Source of the DNA: a virus
Length of the DNA stretch: 64,000 nt
Virus record (IMG/VR): IMGVR_UViG_3300015242_000024
Span: 4,780-68,779 of that record
Strand: one strand, 5' to 3'
The notes beneath the pieces were generated by a model. It searched no databases, was not told the origin of the DNA, and saw nothing but the letters and a program-made list of their open reading frames with translations. The first letter of the stretch is position 1; each line of letters opens with the position of its first letter. A program made the position numbers and the translations under genes. Below, piece after piece: positions 1-8,418 of the stretch.

Positions 1-1
1 T

Positions 2-247
2 TTCGTCGCGGTTCCGGATTTCATCACGGAATACAACACGAACGATGGTTCTTCGGAAATCATCGGGGCGGACGCATTCCACAACTTGCGCCGTATGTTT
101 CGGCGTGACCCGGATTACCGCATTCACCGGCATTTCTGCGGTGACGCAAAGGTCCATTCGGTAATGTATATCGGAAAGGGTGAACCGGTTCTTTCGTCCT
201 ACGTTTGGCACGTTCCCTTTGGGAGTGACGAACTGTACGGCGGTTAA
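2..247 (+). CDS. hypothetical protein, 5'-truncated by window edge
   Basis: Open frame from nt 2 (FVAVPDFITEYNTNDG...) to TAA 245-247; same strand as neighbours; not in ORF track. Confidence 0.6.
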   Translation, partial: FVAVPDFITEYNTNDGSSEIIGADAFHNLRRMFRRDPDYRIHRHFCGDAKVHSVMYIGKGEPVLSSYVWHVPFGSDELYGG

Positions 248-399
248 GCAATTCGGCACTAGATGGAAAGGGGGTGGTTACCTTGCGCAGAAAGCGTAAG
301 CGTAAATTACCCTAGGCACTAAGCCAAGCTAGCGGGATTTGAGTTCCGGGCATTCCGAAAGGGTGTCCGGGCTAATGTCCAACTAGAAAGGTGGAAACA

Positions 400-561
400 A
401 TGCAGACTCTCAAGTTTGCCGCAATGCGTGCGGGTAATGACCCGGACCGTGATTCTGTTGACCACGGAACGTATTACGCGAATAACCTTCCCGGTATTCG
501 AAAGTACCGAAAGGAAGTTCGGGTGACGCGTGGCGCATGGCGAAAGAGGGGAAGCAAGTAA
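400..561 (+). CDS. small hypothetical protein (53 aa)
   Basis: ATG 400 after AGAAAGGTGG RBS; MQTLKFAAMRAG...; stop overlaps the next start (TAATG). Confidence 0.65.
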   Translation: MQTLKFAAMRAGNDPDRDSVDHGTYYANNLPGIRKYRKEVRVTRGAWRKRGSK

Positions 562-803
562 TGCGGGAATATCTCGTGTGGAATGAATCGGGAGATTTGA
601 TTTCCGGTCCACACAGAAAAAGGGAAGTTGCTGAAAGGCAGCAAGCTAAGGCAATGACCGACTGTGAACAGAATTTTTGTGAAACGGACGGTCAAGAGGA
701 AACGCCCGGTCGTGGCAATTTCAAGTGTGGCGTACTTTCACCGCACGGAATCCACATTCAAGTAACCGAGAATGGTTACGACATTACCGGGCATGATTAC
801 TGA
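561..803 (+). CDS. hypothetical Cys/His-containing protein
   Basis: ORF 537..803; start at 561 is coupled to the upstream stop. Confidence 0.65.
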   Translation: MREYLVWNESGDLISGPHRKREVAERQQAKAMTDCEQNFCETDGQEETPGRGNFKCGVLSPHGIHIQVTENGYDITGHDY

Positions 804-817
804 CATTCTGTGTGTCT

Positions 818-871
818 GGTCATTGTCAGTGCGGAGTCTGACAGTGTCCAAATGCATTGACGGTCAATGCA
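818..871 (+). promoter_or_regulatory. tandem two-hairpin element, copy 1
   Basis: GGTCATTGTCAG-TGCGGAGT-CTGACAGTGTCC, then TGCATTGA-CGG-TCAATGCA, then RBS. Confidence 0.7.
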
Positions 872-888
872 GAGAAAAGGGGCTCAAA

Positions 889-1050
889 ATGCGTACTGCC
901 ATCGTTGACGGTCGTTCGGGTGTCGTTGCTGCCACCGGTTCGGCGCAGAATGCCGGTAAGGTGTTCGTCCTTTTCGATGATGAGCGTTTCACCGGTGACA
1001 CGTCCGCCGATTGGTTCCCCGCGTCGGTCGTTACGTCCGACAACGGCTGA
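889..1050 (+). CDS. small hypothetical protein
   Basis: ATG 889 with GAAAAGGGG RBS (MRTAIVDGRSG...). Confidence 0.65.
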   Translation: MRTAIVDGRSGVVAATGSAQNAGKVFVLFDDERFTGDTSADWFPASVVTSDNG

Positions 1051-1154
1051 CAACGTGTGTGGGGGAGCGTCTGAGAGGTTTTCAGCGCTCCCCCGGTCCA
1101 TCGGTCCAACCAAGCTACGAACGGCCGTTAGAACGGCACTGAGAGGGTTTCGCC

Positions 1155-1379
1155 ATGGCGCGTACCAAGTGGGAAATCCTGTCCGCTCAACTCGAAACCG
1201 CGCGTGCGGAAGTTGAGCGGCTGGAAAGCTACATGCGAGGAATGGAAAACACCCCGGATAACGTCAAGTGTTCCGGATGCGGTGAACAATTCCGCGTGAA
1301 TGCAGATTTCGCGCGGCATTTCAAGATTCCGAATGAACAATTGCTCAACATGGGATATTGCCCGAACAATCCGCGATAA
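1155..1379 (+). CDS. hypothetical protein, coiled coil plus zinc-finger-like motif
   Basis: CSGC...H...C motif; GAGAGG RBS. Confidence 0.7.
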   Translation: MARTKWEILSAQLETARAEVERLESYMRGMENTPDNVKCSGCGEQFRVNADFARHFKIPNEQLLNMGYCPNNPR

Positions 1380-1398
1380 AGACTGACGCTTATACGTC

Positions 1399-1453
1399 CG
1401 GGCATTCTCAATGCAGAGTTTGAGAGTGTCCGAATGTCCTAAGGGTTAGGGCA
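1399..1453 (+). promoter_or_regulatory. tandem two-hairpin element, copy 2
   Basis: CGGGCATTCTCAA-TGCAGAGT-TTGAGAGTGTCCG, then TGTCCTAA-GGG-TTAGGGCA, then RBS. Confidence 0.7.
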
Positions 1454-1465
1454 GGAAAGGAAACA

Positions 1466-1900
1466 ATGGAGATTCGCAACGTGACCAATCCGAGCAACAT
1501 CGGAACGGCCATTCTCCAGACTTCCGCAAAGTGGGGAGACAACATCACTTCCCGTGGCATTACGTCGAATGTCCGGCGCAATGGCAATTACAATGCGCGG
1601 GTAAGGCTTGTGGCGCATTCGTCGTTTGGTGACGGAACGCGCGAAAGCGCAAGCGGTAGGCGCGGCCCGTGGGTTTGCTGGCATGCGCAGCGCGATTTTT
1701 TCCGCGCGCTGTTCGCCATTGAGCCTACGGCAACGGTTCGAACGGGCCTAGGACGTGATGGGGTGACCTATTCGGCCGCAAGCTTTGAGAGCACGTTTCC
1801 GGGCACGTACAACACGAATGCGGGAAGTCTGTACTACCCGCGAGAGTTTGGCGGGTTGTGCGGTCACGGTGGACGTGAGGCAGTGAACGGCACTTATTAA
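1466..1900 (+). CDS. hypothetical protein
   Basis: 144 aa ORF with GGAAAGGA RBS. Confidence 0.8.
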   Translation: MEIRNVTNPSNIGTAILQTSAKWGDNITSRGITSNVRRNGNYNARVRLVAHSSFGDGTRESASGRRGPWVCWHAQRDFFRALFAIEPTATVRTGLGRDGVTYSAASFESTFPGTYNTNAGSLYYPREFGGLCGHGGREAVNGTY

Positions 1901-1907
1901 ACGGTTC

Positions 1908-1964
1908 GGGGGAATGGCAATGGAGAGTTTGCCATTCCCTCAATCCGCTTAAGGTGAGTGGATT
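1908..1964 (+). promoter_or_regulatory. tandem two-hairpin element, copy 3
   Basis: GGGGGAATGGCAA-TGGAGAGT-TTGCCATTCCCTC, then AATCCGCTTA-AGG-TGAGTGGATT, then RBS. Confidence 0.7.
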
Positions 1965-1978
1965 AGAAAGGCAATACA

Positions 1979-2368
1979 ATGTCGGGACACATTTTCGCTT
2001 TCATGACCGCAACGGCCGTGGAAATTGCCCCGGAAGATGAAAACGGAGGAATTGAGCTTAACGGTTGGGTTGACAGGGAATGGTCTATGACTGCATTGCA
2101 CGATTCCCGCAACGACGTTTCTCCGCTCATGTCGCTTGACGAAAGCGACACGGAAGCTTTGGCGGACGAAATCCGAGACATTCTCGGTGACGCTTCGCTG
2201 TATTTCGACAATGGGGACGGGAATTTTTACATTCACGATTCCCGTACGGAAGATGGAATGGAATTCACGTACTGCGTGAATTTCAAGCGTAAGTTTCTCG
2301 GCTCGAATGGTTGGGCTGAGGAATCTTGGCACCCTGAGAATGACGGGGGCATTTCGCTTTCTGAGTAG
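1979..2368 (+). CDS. acidic hypothetical protein
   Basis: 129 aa, D/E-rich, AGAAAGG RBS. Confidence 0.8.
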   Translation: MSGHIFAFMTATAVEIAPEDENGGIELNGWVDREWSMTALHDSRNDVSPLMSLDESDTEALADEIRDILGDASLYFDNGDGNFYIHDSRTEDGMEFTYCVNFKRKFLGSNGWAEESWHPENDGGISLSE

Positions 2369-2426
2369 TTGAATGTCCGGGGCACAATGTGCCCCGTGGC
2401 ATTGTCTATTTAGAAAGGTGGCCAAA

Positions 2427-2675
2427 GTGGCTATCGTTCGGTTGACAGGCATTCCCACAAATCGACGGGAAATCGAAATCGAGTGGGAGTGTGAGGTAAG
2501 GGGATTTCGTGGCGCTACTGCGGTAGTGGCGCGGGATTTGAGGCACACAGCAACAAACGACTTTCGGCATAAGGTCATGCGCCTATGGGCCGAACACGGA
2601 AAGTCGGGCGGTTTCGCTATCAAGGAAAAGCACAGTGATTCATGGTGGCTTTTCGAGTATGTAGAGGGGAAGTAA
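2427..2675 (+). CDS. hypothetical protein
   Basis: GTG 2427 after AGAAAGGTGG RBS, within ORF 2373..2675. Confidence 0.65.
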   Translation: MAIVRLTGIPTNRREIEIEWECEVRGFRGATAVVARDLRHTATNDFRHKVMRLWAEHGKSGGFAIKEKHSDSWWLFEYVEGK

Positions 2676-2679
2676 GACA

Positions 2680-2775
2680 ATGGCAATCACAACATGGATT
2701 ATCCGTTGTGTGAACTGCCGCCGGTTGATTTTTGCTGGGCAAACGTGCGTTTGCGGAACTCGCAACGGTGTATGA
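2680..2775 (+). CDS. small Cys-rich protein (31 aa)
   Basis: MAITTWIIRCVNCRRLIFAGQTCVCGTRNGV; fills the gap between coupled genes. Confidence 0.45.
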   Translation: MAITTWIIRCVNCRRLIFAGQTCVCGTRNGV

Positions 2776-2786
2776 AAGGTAGAAAA

Positions 2787-3047
2787 GTGAAGGAAATCAT
2801 GCGGGTTTGCCTTTCCGACAATGGAAAGGAAATCCTGATGTATTCCGAGAATGGCGAAACCCTGGAAAGGGTATACGCCGTTCGTGACTTTGCCGCGATT
2901 GCTGAAACGGCAAGGGAAGCTGTGGAATCCGCTTTCCAGGATGACTACATGGAAAGGAACGGACGGCATTTCAATAACTGCCTAGGCTATGAGGATTGCC
3001 GGGCGGGTATGTGTGATGAGCATTACGAGAATGAAGGGACGTACTGA
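2787..3047 (+). CDS. hypothetical protein
   Basis: GTG 2787 after GAAAGG, within ORF 2694..3047. Confidence 0.6.
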   Translation: MKEIMRVCLSDNGKEILMYSENGETLERVYAVRDFAAIAETAREAVESAFQDDYMERNGRHFNNCLGYEDCRAGMCDEHYENEGTY

Positions 3048-3048
3048 A

Positions 3049-3414
3049 ATGCGTTGGATTCCCATTGGCCGAAAGGCTTTTGCCGAAATCCAGTCGGAAG
3101 CTACAGAAACCGTCACTGACGAATACGAGGGAATCACCCTGTACTTTGGGGAAACGATTTCCGCTATTCGTCGCATGGGTGAGCGGCTGTACATGTACGA
3201 AACGAATTTTCGTGAGGCAATCCAGGAAGTTGACGTTACCGAATTGCAGGAAGGTGATGTTATTTGGTATTGCCTCAATGACGGACCGGTAAGGGCACAT
3301 CGTCCGCACGTCGAATATCCCAATACCGAAATGGTTTTCTGGCATTCCGGTATGAAGGATGCATTCGGTTCGCCCCAAAAGTTGGAAGTATTGCGGGGCG
3401 GACAGTTCGCCTAG
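3049..3414 (+). CDS. hypothetical protein
   Basis: ATG 3049 directly after upstream stop (MRWIPIGRK...). Confidence 0.7.
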   Translation: MRWIPIGRKAFAEIQSEATETVTDEYEGITLYFGETISAIRRMGERLYMYETNFREAIQEVDVTELQEGDVIWYCLNDGPVRAHRPHVEYPNTEMVFWHSGMKDAFGSPQKLEVLRGGQFA

Positions 3415-3516
3415 GTAGTAGAGGGGTACACAGTGGTTGGTACAATAAATCCCTGTGTGCCTCTCTAAGGCACTCGGAATCGGTCCGGGTGTCATTGCCT
3501 AGGGAAGGGTCTAGCG

Positions 3517-4107
3517 ATGCGTCACGTAGCCACACACGGGCACAACGGGTACTTTGGGTGTGAGCGGGAAGGGTGTAAGAACCTTCCTGCCGTTCATGGC
3601 ACCCATACGCGTTGCCGTTGTGAGGGTTGGCAGACTCAAAACAAGGGATTGTGTACGGCGTGCAATTCGCCGGTATTGGCGGATTGGGAATGGGAACTCT
3701 TGACGGATAATGTCCATTGGGCTAATTCGTGCCTAGGGGATGGTTTCAATTCCTATGGTATGGAGTGCCCCGGATATGCACGTTCAGAATGGCCGTGCTC
3801 GGTATGCTCAGATAGGCAGGCATCGGAAGTGCAGAATTCGGCCGGGTTTGTAGAGACCCTAGATAGAATGGTAAGCAATATGCAGAATAGGGAAGAAAAG
3901 GAAACAGACAACTTCCCTATTACCCTAGTAGCACATAGGGGAGATAAGACTATCCCTGTAGTGCATGTAAGGGCAGATAGCATTACCGCAGTAGAGAGTA
4001 AGACAAAGGGATATGTAGACCTTTCCTTTGAGTATTACGGTAATGACATCATTGGCTATGTGCCTATGGTGGATTACTACACAACCGAGTCTGATAGTGA
4101 CTACTGA
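3517..4107 (+). CDS. Cys-rich hypothetical protein
   Basis: 196 aa with several CxxC motifs; AGGGAAGGG RBS. Confidence 0.65.
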   Translation: MRHVATHGHNGYFGCEREGCKNLPAVHGTHTRCRCEGWQTQNKGLCTACNSPVLADWEWELLTDNVHWANSCLGDGFNSYGMECPGYARSEWPCSVCSDRQASEVQNSAGFVETLDRMVSNMQNREEKETDNFPITLVAHRGDKTIPVVHVRADSITAVESKTKGYVDLSFEYYGNDIIGYVPMVDYYTTESDSDY

Positions 4108-4379
4108 TAGGGGGTAAATAGACGCTAACTAATAGTTAGTGTAGATAGAGGGATATTGTGCAGCCTTTATGGTGCATTTATGTCGCATTTCTTTATAGAA
4201 TTCAATTTAATTCAAAGAAAGTGGGGCAGAATGCGGCCATTCCTGCTAATAACAGCCCTATTCCTGATAGGGGCCTATATGGTGGGGGTATTGCCAGGGG
4301 GTATTACCTACTAGGGTATAGGCAAGGGTATATAGGGGGTGCATATAGTACCCCCGCATATAGAGAGTAGGGATATACA

Positions 4380-8055: not shown

Positions 8056-8127
8056 AGCCTAGTTTGGGAATCGAACCCAAGACCACTTCCGTACCAAGGA
8101 AGAATTCTACCACTGAACTAACTAGGC
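8056..8127 (-). tRNA. tRNA-Thr(GGU)
   Basis: Cloverleaf; anticodon arm CTTCC-TTGGTAC-GGAAG; GGTTCGATTCC T-arm; no encoded CCA. Confidence 0.9.
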
Positions 8128-8182
8128 ATGAATTGCTAAGCTTGGCGGTCCCCAAAAGGTAGAAGAAAAAGAACCGCCTGCG

Positions 8183-8254
8183 AGCCAGATAACGGAATCG
8201 AACCGTTGATTAGTCATTACGAAAGACTTGTGTTACCACTACAACTAATCTGGC
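8183..8254 (-). tRNA. tRNA-Thr(CGU)
   Basis: Cloverleaf; anticodon loop TTCGTAA; U-U mismatch closing the loop; TTCGATT T-loop. Confidence 0.8.
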
Positions 8255-8345
8255 AAAGGCCGTTCCCCTGCAACTGGGTACTAGACCGTCCTCGTGCAAC
8301 AGAGGCAAGTTCGGTTGCATTCTCCCCTGCATACTTGCCCGATTG

Positions 8346-8418
8346 AGCCGCCTGTCAGACTCGAACTGACTACCTCGTGTTTACAAGACACGTGCTCTGC
8401 CTGGTGAGCTAAGGCGGC
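8346..8418 (-). tRNA. tRNA-Thr(UGU)
   Basis: Cloverleaf; CGTGT-CTTGTAA-ACACG; TTCGAGT T-loop. Confidence 0.9.

What the first reader, a model, noticed from the sequence alone, without database searches (positions are those of the whole stretch)
818..1964. Repeated two-hairpin RNA element with conserved loops before early genes
Seen: three intergenic regions (818-871, 1399-1453, 1908-1964) share one architecture. Each has a 12-13 bp stem closed by an 8-nt loop (TGCGGAGT, TGCAGAGT, TGGAGAGT; consensus UGSRGAGU), an AA junction, a second 8-10 bp stem capped by A-NGG-U, and then the RBS. The stem sequences largely differ between copies but still pair, often through G-U. Structure and loops are conserved while stem sequence is not, which points to an RNA-level signal. 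A looser fourth copy lies at 3420-3493. Established analogues: HK022 put two-stem antiterminator RNAs, T7 early RNase III sites, and hairpins bound by translational regulators. Inference: an undescribed cis-regulatory system that processes, antiterminates or controls translation of the early transcript.
Basis: partly seen in the sequence, partly recalled or inferred. Interest (0 to 1): 0.8.

Follow-up and report, generated by a model that had tools for sequence, protein, structure and literature searches.

The report
Bistable hairpin connector between phage genes
Between several small genes at one end of a Streptomyces phage genome sits a repeated, undescribed RNA element that can fold in two alternative ways, and it probably marks where the long messenger RNA is cut or protected, although no experiment has yet shown what it does.

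Summary
At 817-871, 1399-1453 and 1908-1964 a 12-13 bp hairpin with loop TGSRGAGT is followed by an 8-10 bp hairpin and then the RBS.

A covariance model built from the three copies finds 22 copies at E<=1e-3 in the window and eight Loccivirinae (BK-type) Streptomyces phages. All are on the gene strand, and all lie between stop codon and RBS. In nine complete genomes all 25 hits lie within about 3 kb of one right-arm operon.

Both stems covary strongly. Rfam has no match.

The TGSRGAGT loop occurs in only 8 of 23 aligned copies. There is also a third conserved strand, X, which usually contains the upstream stop codon. X pairs with the 5' arm of hairpin 2 to form a 26-29 bp irregular hairpin that encloses hairpin 1. 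This pairing excludes hairpin 2, and both pairings covary.

My best reading is a bistable intercistronic mRNA element that serves as a T7-like endonuclease (RNase III-type) processing and stabilising site. That function is inferred, not shown. Put-like antitermination and terminator readings fit poorly.

The parts
800..816 (+). e1 strand X (5' module). It contains the TGA stop codon (801-803) of the upstream 80-aa ORF. The last base, C816, is the invariant C that faces the invariant A of the junction.
   Evidence: X:Y pairing.
817..850 (+). e1 hairpin P1: 13-nt arms with one T.T mismatch, 8-nt loop TGCGGAGT at 830-837.
851..871 (+). e1 junction AA plus hairpin P2 (853-860 / 864-871, loop CGG). 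The 5' arm and loop form strand Y; the 3' arm is strand X'. The purine-rich RBS follows at 875-882 and the ATG at 889.
1383..1398 (+). e2 strand X. The upstream stop codon TAA (1377-1379) lies 4 nt before it.
1399..1432 (+). e2 hairpin P1: 13 bp, loop TGCAGAGT at 1412-1419.
1433..1453 (+). e2 junction AA plus hairpin P2 (1435-1442 / 1446-1453, loop GGG). The RBS is at 1454-1460 and the ATG at 1466.
1891..1907 (+). e3 strand X. It contains the upstream stop codon TAA (1898-1900).
1908..1941 (+). e3 hairpin P1: 13 bp, loop TGGAGAGT at 1921-1928.
1942..1964 (+). e3 hairpin P2: 10 bp, loop AGG, abutting P1 directly. The RBS is at 1965-1971 and the ATG at 1979.
346..371 (+). Degenerate relative of P1: a short stem with a GAAA loop, followed by AATG, with no P2. 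Its loop region resembles the P1 of TunaTartare L006:7340 and Sham L007:7348, which occupy the same place after the homologous upstream gene.
   Evidence: Neither model hits it at E<=1.
3415..3516 (+). The 'fourth copy': two long hairpins enclosed by an outer stem that runs from the stop codon to the RBS. The layout is analogous, but it is not a detectable homologue.
   Evidence: No model hit.

Best explanation
WHAT IT IS (shown). The element is a cis-acting structured segment of the polycistronic mRNA of one right-arm operon of small ORFan genes. It occurs in Loccivirinae (BK-type) Streptomyces phages. Each unit fills the gap between a stop codon and the next RBS.

A unit has four strands: X - P1 - Y - X'. 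Y can pair with X' to form the local hairpin P2. Y can instead pair with X to form a 26-29 bp irregular hairpin that encloses P1. This is form B. At the base of P1, form B carries an invariant U-A pair and an invariant C.A mismatch. Form B is usually the more stable of the two. A ribosome terminating on the stop codon inside X would occlude X and so favour form A.

HOW IT WORKS (inferred). Form B is the substrate of a double-strand-specific endonuclease, most simply the host RNase III. In this it resembles the five RNase III signals between the early genes of T7. The mismatch at the base of P1 would direct a single-strand cut near the invariant junction. The upstream mRNA would then end in P1, a 3' stabiliser. 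The downstream mRNA would begin with the re-formed P2, a 5' stabiliser, just ahead of an RBS that is always open.

SECONDARY CONSEQUENCE (inferred). The units also act as portable connectors at which gene cassettes are exchanged between phages.
For: Family and placement.
- Model R1, built from the three window copies, gives 22 hits at E<=1e-3 in 150 kb (both strands). All are on the + strand and all lie between stop codon and RBS.
- Model R2, run over nine complete genomes, gives 25 hits at E<=0.01. All are on the gene strand and lie within <=3.2 kb per genome. A further 15 hits occur in IMG/VR loci.

RNA structure.
- P1 and P2 covary.
- The + strand is favoured over its reverse complement in 23 of 24 copies.

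Form B.
- It is the MFE structure in 18 of 24 copies.
- On a MAFFT alignment not fitted to any structure (A5, 23 copies), X:Y pairs in 84.1% of cells against 73.6% in shuffles (0 of 500) and 19-51% in slid controls. 8 of 15 pairs have compensatory changes, and 37 cells change on both sides against 13.9 +/- 3.4 expected.
- On the same alignment P2 pairs in 96.1% of cells, with 5 of 8 pairs compensatory.
- Mean X:Y duplex energy is -12.0 kcal/mol for a copy's own partner, -7.9 for swapped partners and -6.0 for shuffled X.
- In the 15 later hits the values are -12.1 against -6.5. Three of these hits duplicate three others, and some come from near relatives of phages already used.

Invariant bases. 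All 23 copies have the U-A pair (columns 20/66), with C (column 21) facing A (column 65), at the base of P1.

Stop codon. It lies inside X in 19 of 23 copies, <=4 nt upstream in 2, and about 100 nt upstream in 2. I read this from the annotation tables and flanks.

Natural variants. Related strains carry 30-31 differences per 1401 nt. Only three of them fall in the elements, and all three are at positions unpaired in both forms.

Conservation. In 15 of 26 related records, the 72-79 nt element is the only part of the 4.2 kb query that megablast detects.

Precedent (passages read in PMC3867540).
- T7 has five RNase III signals in its polycistronic early precursor.
- Mismatches or loops at the target give single-strand cleavage.
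- The resulting 3' hairpins stabilise the RNA.
- About 11 bp is the minimum substrate, and P1 is 12-13 bp.
Against: - No RNA data exist. Cleavage, RNA ends and even the timing of expression are untested.
- The specificity of Streptomyces RNase III is not known to me. Nothing in the sequence identifies RNase III rather than another nuclease or a binding protein.
- Blocking X in silico leaves RBS accessibility unchanged: the unpaired probability of the SD is 0.54 against 0.52. The two forms therefore have no obvious translational read-out.
- Form B is not the MFE in 6 of 24 copies, e3 among them. The preferred form also changes with the amount of flanking sequence.
- The outer part of X:Y (columns 5-9 / 78-84) fails to pair in 3-7 of 23 copies per column pair. 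The small hairpin P0 pairs in only 73.9% of cells.
- P1 length is not fixed. It spans 30-43 nt across copies.
- The phages encode no RNase III of their own: 0 of 5 complete genomes match PF14622. A host enzyme would be needed.
Confidence: 0.4

Rival explanations
1. Passive insulator or stabiliser with no specific cleavage. The unit keeps the whole untranslated gap folded whether or not a ribosome sits on X. This shields it from single-strand nucleases, 3' exonucleases and Rho loading. It also keeps a standard purine-rich RBS free of pairing with whatever gene lies upstream. P2 is the fallback partner for Y when X is occupied.
For: - The RBS is equally open in both forms.
- 8 of 9 gaps in this operon fold stably even where the family is absent.
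- Both pairings of Y are conserved.
- The stop codon lies inside X in 19 of 23 copies.
Against: - It does not explain the invariant U-A pair and C.A mismatch at the base of P1, or the invariant AAU junction.
- It does not explain why the element is better conserved than the flanking genes across genera.
Confidence: 0.22
2. Translation-sensing or coupling switch. Termination of the upstream ORF inside X flips form B to form A. The looped-out hairpins then bring the stop codon and the next RBS close together, or change the fate of the mRNA. Expression of each gene would depend on translation of the gene before it.
For: - The position of the stop codon in X (19 of 23 copies).
- Two mutually exclusive pairings, both covarying.
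- In a neighbouring gap (contig 4204-4286), the base of the long hairpin pairs the bases next to the stop codon with the SD. This is a classical coupling layout.
Against: - In the family itself the SD is not sequestered in either form.
- In two copies the stop codon lies about 100 nt upstream of X.
Confidence: 0.15
3. Binding site for a phage or host protein. Examples are an N/boxB-like or put-like antitermination signal, or a translational repressor hairpin. The P1 loop or the junction would be the recognition element.
For: - Among the 8 copies with the TGSRGAGT loop, six of eight loop positions are invariant while the stem beneath covaries.
- The loop reads U-GNRGA-GU. I recall this as the GNR(N)A pentaloop pattern of lambda boxB.
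- One orthologue replaces it with a GAGA tetraloop, and three copies have GAAA.
Against: - The loop is absent from 15 of 23 aligned copies and 14 of 15 later hits, and orthologous sites carry unrelated loops.
- There are 2-5 intercistronic copies per genome, and none is next to a promoter-like site. Put and nut sites, as I recall, occur once behind each early promoter.
- No candidate binding protein was identified. The ten operon proteins match no Pfam or PHROG family at significance.
Confidence: 0.12
4. Tail-less intrinsic terminators or attenuators that grade transcription along the operon. The precedent is a report for the early region of actinophage phiC31. I saw only its title, in a reference list.
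For: - Strong hairpins directly after stop codons.
- A published title reports Rho-independent terminators without poly-U tails in a Streptomyces phage early region.
Against: - No T-run follows P1, P2 or form B. The terminator scan finds none at the units.
- The title and abstract start of PMC3993855 state that mycobacterial RNA polymerase needs a U-tract.
- Termination does not explain conservation of X:Y together with P2, or the invariant junction.
Confidence: 0.07
5. A DNA-level feature only. The units would be repeated boundary sequences at which homologous recombination shuffles gene cassettes, with no function in the RNA.
For: - Mosaic breakpoints coincide with the gaps. Similarity to TunaTartare and Sham ends at 331, and similarity to Blueeyedbeauty and Faust starts at 1053-1055.
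- Faust has an extra gene with its own unit.
- The window's e2 is most similar to the unit at the e1 position in Gilson-type phages.
Against: - Recombination needs sequence identity, not complementarity. Compensatory changes, G.U pairs confined to one strand and the strand asymmetry of folding all point to selection on RNA.
Confidence: 0.04

Closest known systems
RNase III processing signals of the bacteriophage T7 early polycistronic mRNA (R0.3 to R1.3)
   Same: - Irregular hairpins placed between cistrons of a phage operon of small genes.
- A helix interrupted by a mismatch or loop.
- Cleavage in T7 leaves a 3' hairpin that stabilises the upstream mRNA (passages of PMC3867540).
- Several copies occur per transcript.
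   Different: - No sequence relationship.
- The host is an actinomycete.
- Cleavage has not been shown here.
- The present unit has an additional, mutually exclusive hairpin (P2) and a stop codon embedded in the 5' strand. I do not recall either feature for T7.
SAS/ESAS repeats of Cluster K mycobacteriophages (PMC3203893; abstract and passages read)
   Same: - Actinobacteriophage repeats in one orientation, just upstream of the start codons of a subset of non-structural genes.
- ESAS is an imperfect inverted repeat with a variable spacer.
- Its function is unknown and is suspected to be translational.
   Different: - ESAS arms follow a 17-bp sequence consensus. The arms here covary.
- SAS is a fixed 13-bp motif present in 11-19 copies across half the genome. 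Here there are 2-5 copies within about 3 kb.
- The present unit has a third strand and a bistable fold.
HK022 put RNAs (recalled)
   Same: Two adjacent stem-loops of about 60-70 nt in a phage transcript, acting in cis.
   Different: As I recall, put sites lie once behind each early promoter. The present units lie between cistrons, in several copies, next to no promoter-like site. They include the X strand.
Lambda nut boxB (recalled)
   Same: The loop subtype U-GNRGA-GU fits a GNR(N)A pentaloop pattern.
   Different: - The stem is 12-13 bp rather than 5 bp.
- The loop is present in only 8 of 23 aligned copies.
- No N-like protein was identified.
T4-type PeSL mobile regulatory cassettes (recalled)
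   Same: Repeated regulatory stem-loop modules that flank small genes in a hyperplastic region and coincide with cassette exchange.
   Different: PeSL includes an early promoter. No promoter-like site is seen in the present units.

Membership tests
Any Rfam 15 family | Covariance-model score at or above the family's gathering threshold | tested here: not met
   In the whole window only three tRNAs pass. At E<=10 over 200-3600 only miRNA/snoRNA noise appears, the best being E 1.6 at 20 bits against a gathering score of 84.
T7-type RNase III processing signal | Double-helical hairpin of at least about 11 bp on the side of the target, with total length near two helical turns | tested here: met
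   P1 is 12-13 bp. Form B totals 26-29 bp. The substrate length requirement comes from PMC3867540.
T7-type RNase III processing signal | Placed between cistrons of a polycistronic phage transcript | tested here: met
   All copies lie between a stop codon and the next RBS, on the gene strand. That the genes form one transcript is inferred from their common strand, the short gaps and the absence of promoter-like or terminator-like sites.
T7-type RNase III processing signal | Site-specific cleavage by RNase III | not testable with these tools
   No RNA run holds the sequence. Enzymology is needed.
HK022 put antiterminator RNA | Located just downstream of an early promoter, one per early transcript (recalled) | tested here: not met
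   There are 2-5 intercistronic copies per genome. No sigma-70-like site lies at or before the units on the + strand.
HK022 put antiterminator RNA | Suppresses downstream terminators in cis | not testable with these tools
   Needs a reporter or a transcription assay.
Canonical intrinsic terminator | GC-rich hairpin followed directly by a U-tract | tested here: not met
   P1 is followed by AAU plus P2. P2 and form B are followed by a purine-rich RBS. The scan lists no terminator-like site at the units.
Cluster K SAS/ESAS | 13-bp SAS consensus overlapping the RBS, and 17-bp inverted-repeat arms with a sequence consensus | tested here: not met
   The SAS motif quoted in PMC3203893 is not seen in the units by eye. 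I ran no pattern search for it. The arms here vary with compensation rather than follow a consensus.
Lambda nut (boxA + boxB) | Short boxB hairpin with a GNR(N)A pentaloop, bound by an N-type peptide (recalled) | tested here: inconclusive
   The pentaloop pattern fits 8 of 23 aligned copies. Stem length differs. No N-like protein was sought beyond the Pfam and PHROG scans of ten neighbouring proteins.

The most novel reading that the evidence does not exclude
The unit is a ribosome-sensing, bistable intercistronic switch. While the upstream gene is being translated, terminating ribosomes hold the RNA in the three-hairpin form. An idle message relaxes into the long double-stranded form, which a nuclease or protein recognises. 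The fate of each downstream cistron would then be tied to translation of its neighbour. The whole device travels with gene cassettes as a portable connector. This would be a self-contained post-transcriptional logic element not described for any phage.
Probability: 0.18. Interest if true: 0.75.

Novelty: new variant of a known kind. Interest (0 to 1): 0.55.

Why it matters
Gene expression in large Streptomyces phages is almost unstudied, and this phage group has no described RNA element. The unit described here is compact (about 75 nt) and well supported by covariation.

Its two mutually exclusive, co-conserved folds, with a stop codon built into one strand, make it directly testable. It could show how an actinophage divides, stabilises or couples the cistrons of a long message.

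If it is cleaved, it would be an actinobacterial counterpart of the T7 RNase III sites and a defined natural substrate for the Streptomyces enzyme. If it is not cleaved, it would be a natural 'insulator' for modular gene cassettes, which would be useful for building operons in Streptomyces.

Its reach is narrow. It was found in one operon of one phage subfamily.

Tried and rejected
- RNA evidence. The look-up of sequencing runs listed no RNA holder, so expression and RNA ends could not be examined. Read laying gave DNA contigs only.
- The phiC31 tail-less terminator paper (PMC306685) is not held. I saw only its title, in a reference list.
- Promoter reading. The CTGAC/TTGAC at the start of X looks like a -35 box. 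No consistent -10 box follows at 16-18 nt by eye, and the scan finds no + strand site at the units. Rejected.
- Tandem gene duplication as the source of the repeats. The genes after e1, e2 and e3 are 53, 144 and 129 aa long and begin differently. I did not compare the proteins formally.
- RBS gating by the switch. The unpaired probability of the SD is 0.54 with X free and 0.52 with X blocked. Rejected.
- Phage-encoded RNase III. 0 of 5 complete genomes match PF14622.
- Function of neighbouring genes. 10 of 10 operon proteins have no PHROG hit. The only Pfam hits are two sub-threshold matches.
- Wider distribution. A protein-anchored scan of IMG/VR gave 3 loci. A pattern scan gave 8 loci, of which 3 are new contigs of the same phage type. 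tblastn of the 144-aa protein finds distant homologues in Mycobacterium and Arthrobacter phages. I did not examine those for the element. Boydwoodruffvirinae (BE-type) phages were not searched.
- Loop complementarity to the anti-SD, or between loops. By eye there is only a 3-4 nt GGAG/GAG match and no consistent partner. Not pursued.
- Supplementary files of papers were not consulted.
Full report
CONTEXT

The window is bases 4780-68779 of a 68.8 kb viral contig. CheckV rates the contig 53% complete.

Window 1-4200 matches the right end of Streptomyces phages of Stanwilliamsviridae/Loccivirinae. These include Beuffert, Annadreamy, Blueeyedbeauty, Faust, TunaTartare, Sham, Gilson and Comrade. 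The matches lie at 121-129 kb of roughly 130 kb genomes, are patchy, and run at 77-84% identity.

The region is a run of small + strand ORFs downstream of a non-coding stretch of about 1.45 kb. Ten of ten ORF products match no PHROG family, and none reaches a Pfam threshold. Calling these genes 'early' is an inference from this layout. No call tests it.

OBSERVATION

The three sites are as described.
- Each has a 12-13 bp stem closed by TGCGGAGT, TGCAGAGT or TGGAGAGT.
- A two-base AA junction follows. In e3 these two bases pair into P2.
- An 8-10 bp stem with a 3-nt loop comes next.
- A purine-rich RBS follows, and the start codon lies 12-17 nt after the second stem.

Fold z-scores are -2.5, -4.2 and -5.2. 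Of the 36 TGNNGAGT words in the window (both strands), only these three have long flanking stems.

The site at 3420-3493 holds two strong hairpins in the same relative position. No model recognises it.

A FAMILY RESTRICTED TO ONE OPERON

A covariance model of the three copies (R1) was run over the window and eight 10-11 kb right-end loci. It found 22 hits at E<=1e-3 and 25 at E<=1. The 25 include one reverse-strand echo of the e3 palindrome and one truncated copy. All true hits are on the gene strand.

A second model (R2) was run over nine complete genomes, about 1.16 Mb. It gave 25 hits at E<=0.01. All are on the gene strand, and each genome's hits lie within <=3.2 kb. The window's own contig has only e1-e3.

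An IUPAC pattern scan of IMG/VR returned eight loci. Five come from genomes already in hand and three from new contigs of the same phage type. R2 finds 15 more hits in those loci and in L011, again all on one strand.

In 15 of 26 related records the 72-79 nt element is the only part of the 4.2 kb query that megablast detects. There it aligns to the unit at the e1 position, not the e2 position.

THE STRUCTURE IS IN THE RNA

On the 22-copy alignment, which was fitted to the model:
- 95.8% of stem cells form standard pairs, against 70.8% in shuffles (0 of 500) and 31-50% when partners are slid;
- 16 of 21 pairs show compensatory changes;
- about 40 of 455 cells are G.U pairs, counted from the table.

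The given strand folds better than its reverse complement in 23 of 24 copies. The sums are -872 and -662 kcal/mol.

Among e2 orthologues that keep the same loop type, the upper stem occurs in three different, fully complementary versions.

1. The loop is not a family trait. TGSRGAGT occurs in 8 of 23 aligned copies and 1 of 15 later hits. Orthologous sites in other phages carry unrelated loops. One has a GAGA tetraloop and three have GAAA. Within the 8 copies the loop reads U-GNRGA-GU, and only the N and R positions vary. I recall this as the GNR(N)A pentaloop pattern. It may be a stable cap or a subtype-specific ligand site.

2. A third conserved strand exists. About 16 nt ahead of P1 there is a conserved module, X. 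The upstream gene's stop codon lies inside X in 19 of 23 copies, <=4 nt before it in 2, and about 100 nt before it in 2. This comes from the annotation tables, the flanks and my ORF reading of the window.

3. X pairs with the strand that forms the 5' arm of P2. Folding X together with the element gives a long irregular hairpin in 18 of 24 copies. In it X pairs with Y, which is the junction, the P2 5' arm and the P2 loop, and the hairpin encloses P1. This is form B, 26-29 bp in all. The other 6 copies give separate hairpins, which is form A.

Evidence that the long-range pairing is selected:
- On a MAFFT alignment not fitted to any structure (A5), X:Y pairs in 84.1% of cells, against 73.6% shuffled (0 of 500) and 19-51% slid. 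8 of 15 pairs are compensatory, and 37 cells change on both sides against 13.9 +/- 3.4 expected.
- On the same alignment P2 (Y:X') pairs in 96.1% of cells, with 5 of 8 pairs compensatory. A small hairpin within X (P0) pairs in only 73.9%.
- A swap test gives a mean duplex energy of -12.0 kcal/mol for each X with its own Y, -7.9 with other copies' Y and -6.0 for shuffled X.
- The 15 later hits give -12.1 against -6.5. They are only partly independent: L019 and L020 are duplicates, and L013 resembles Gilson.
- One covariation is specific to X:Y, because the changed Y base lies in the P2 loop. It is seen in e3 against L008:8806 and L005:8675.

The bases invariant in all 23 copies come together in form B at the base of P1. 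They are a U-A pair and a C facing an A.

The two forms are close in energy. Which one is the MFE changes with the flanks. With X blocked, P2 forms, and the mean MFE rises from -44.7 to -37.1 kcal/mol.

NATURAL VARIATION

Contigs of three related strains differ from the window at 30-31 of 1401 positions. Only 862, 1382 and 1444 fall in the units. Two are the middle base of the P2 loop and one lies just 5' of X. None touches a pair of either form. The sample is small, so this is weak support.

MECHANISM

Shown: a strand-specific, covarying, bistable RNA unit that fills the gap from stop codon to RBS.

Excluded or unlikely:
- There is no U-tract and no terminator-like or promoter-like site at the units.
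- There is no Rfam family.
- SD accessibility is the same in both forms, 0.54 against 0.52. The switch therefore does not gate the RBS.

Inferred best reading: form B is a substrate for a double-strand-specific endonuclease. This parallels the five RNase III signals of the T7 early precursor. Nicholson's review (PMC3867540, passages read) states three relevant points:
- mismatches or loops at the target restrict cleavage to one strand;
- the resulting 3' hairpins stabilise the RNA;
- about 11 bp is the minimum substrate length.

A cut near the invariant junction would leave P1 at the 3' end of the upstream message. It would also let P2 re-form at the 5' end of the downstream one. This would account for the conservation of both pairings and for the position of the invariant bases.

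The phages encode no RNase III (0 of 5), so the host enzyme would be needed. I give this reading 0.4. The rival readings are a passive insulator, a translation-coupling switch, a protein-binding site, tail-less terminators and a pure recombination boundary. They are set out with their tests in the Rival explanations section.

CASSETTE EXCHANGE

Mosaic breakpoints fall at the gaps. Faust carries an extra membrane-protein gene with its own unit. TunaTartare and Sham lack the window's two ORFs at 400-803. At the corresponding place they have a single full unit, whose P1 resembles the window's degenerate copy at 346-371.

The types of P2 and X are not tied to position. The P2 of the window's e2 equals that of Gilson's unit at the e1 position.

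The units therefore behave as portable connectors. I regard this as a consequence of their function, not the function itself.

COMPARISON AND NOVELTY

The unit works most like the T7 RNase III signals. In genomic behaviour it is most like the SAS/ESAS repeats of Cluster K mycobacteriophages (PMC3203893, abstract and passages). It is a member of neither; see the membership table.

Two literature searches listed nothing on such elements in these phages, by title or abstract start. I saw the listings only, and supplements are closed.

I rate it a new variant of a known kind, namely phage intercistronic RNA structures. Its unusual feature is the co-conserved alternative pairing with a stop codon built into one strand. 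Its distribution is narrow.

Noticed in passing
L012 (contig bases upstream of the window) 290, 572, 771, 1401, 1756; window 8540, 52649, 57167: A second repeated intergenic element: a GC-rich hairpin followed directly by AAGCTT. Five copies sit ahead of AGGAGA-type RBSs of small genes in the first 1.8 kb of the contig, and three more are in the window. The contig has 38 AAGCTT sites, against about 19 expected from base composition. These may be terminator/promoter units of another expression class.
   Followed up: partly
L012 1985-3430 (contig coordinates): A stretch of about 1.45 kb without convincing ORFs lies directly upstream of the operon. All eight relatives have an unannotated gap of about 0.9-1.8 kb at the same place. 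It may hold promoters, an origin or a non-coding RNA. The simple sigma-70 scan found nothing there.
   Followed up: partly
L012 4204-4286 (window -575 to -493): This gap forms a single long hairpin with loop TGTTGAGT, which resembles the TGSRGAGT loops. Its base pairs the bases next to the stop codon with the SD of the next gene. That is a classical translational-coupling layout. The fold energy is -40.4 kcal/mol, z -5.4.
   Followed up: partly
window 8056-8418 (-): Three tRNA genes in tandem on the minus strand.
   Followed up: no
L001 521-1027 (Beuffert gene 251); L006 2903-3376 (TunaTartare gene 250): Relatives annotate a serine/threonine kinase in the same right arm, a few kb upstream of the units. 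A reference title listed in PMC3867540 says the T7 protein kinase positively regulates RNase III. This is a parallel only. No link was tested.
   Followed up: no
window 1-4000 versus the rest: The operon has higher G+C (0.51-0.54) than the rest of the window (0.44-0.49).
   Followed up: no
window 1466-1897: The 144-aa ORF after e2 has distant homologues (35-40% identity) in Mycobacterium phage Fowlmouth and in Arthrobacter phages Racecar, Talia1610 and Mimi. Its function is unknown.
   Followed up: no
window 1051-1154 and 2369-2426: These are other gaps in the operon with their own strong hairpins, and the models do not match them. The gap at 1051-1154 begins with an X-like string that overlaps the stop codon, so it may be a diverged relative.
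   Followed up: partly
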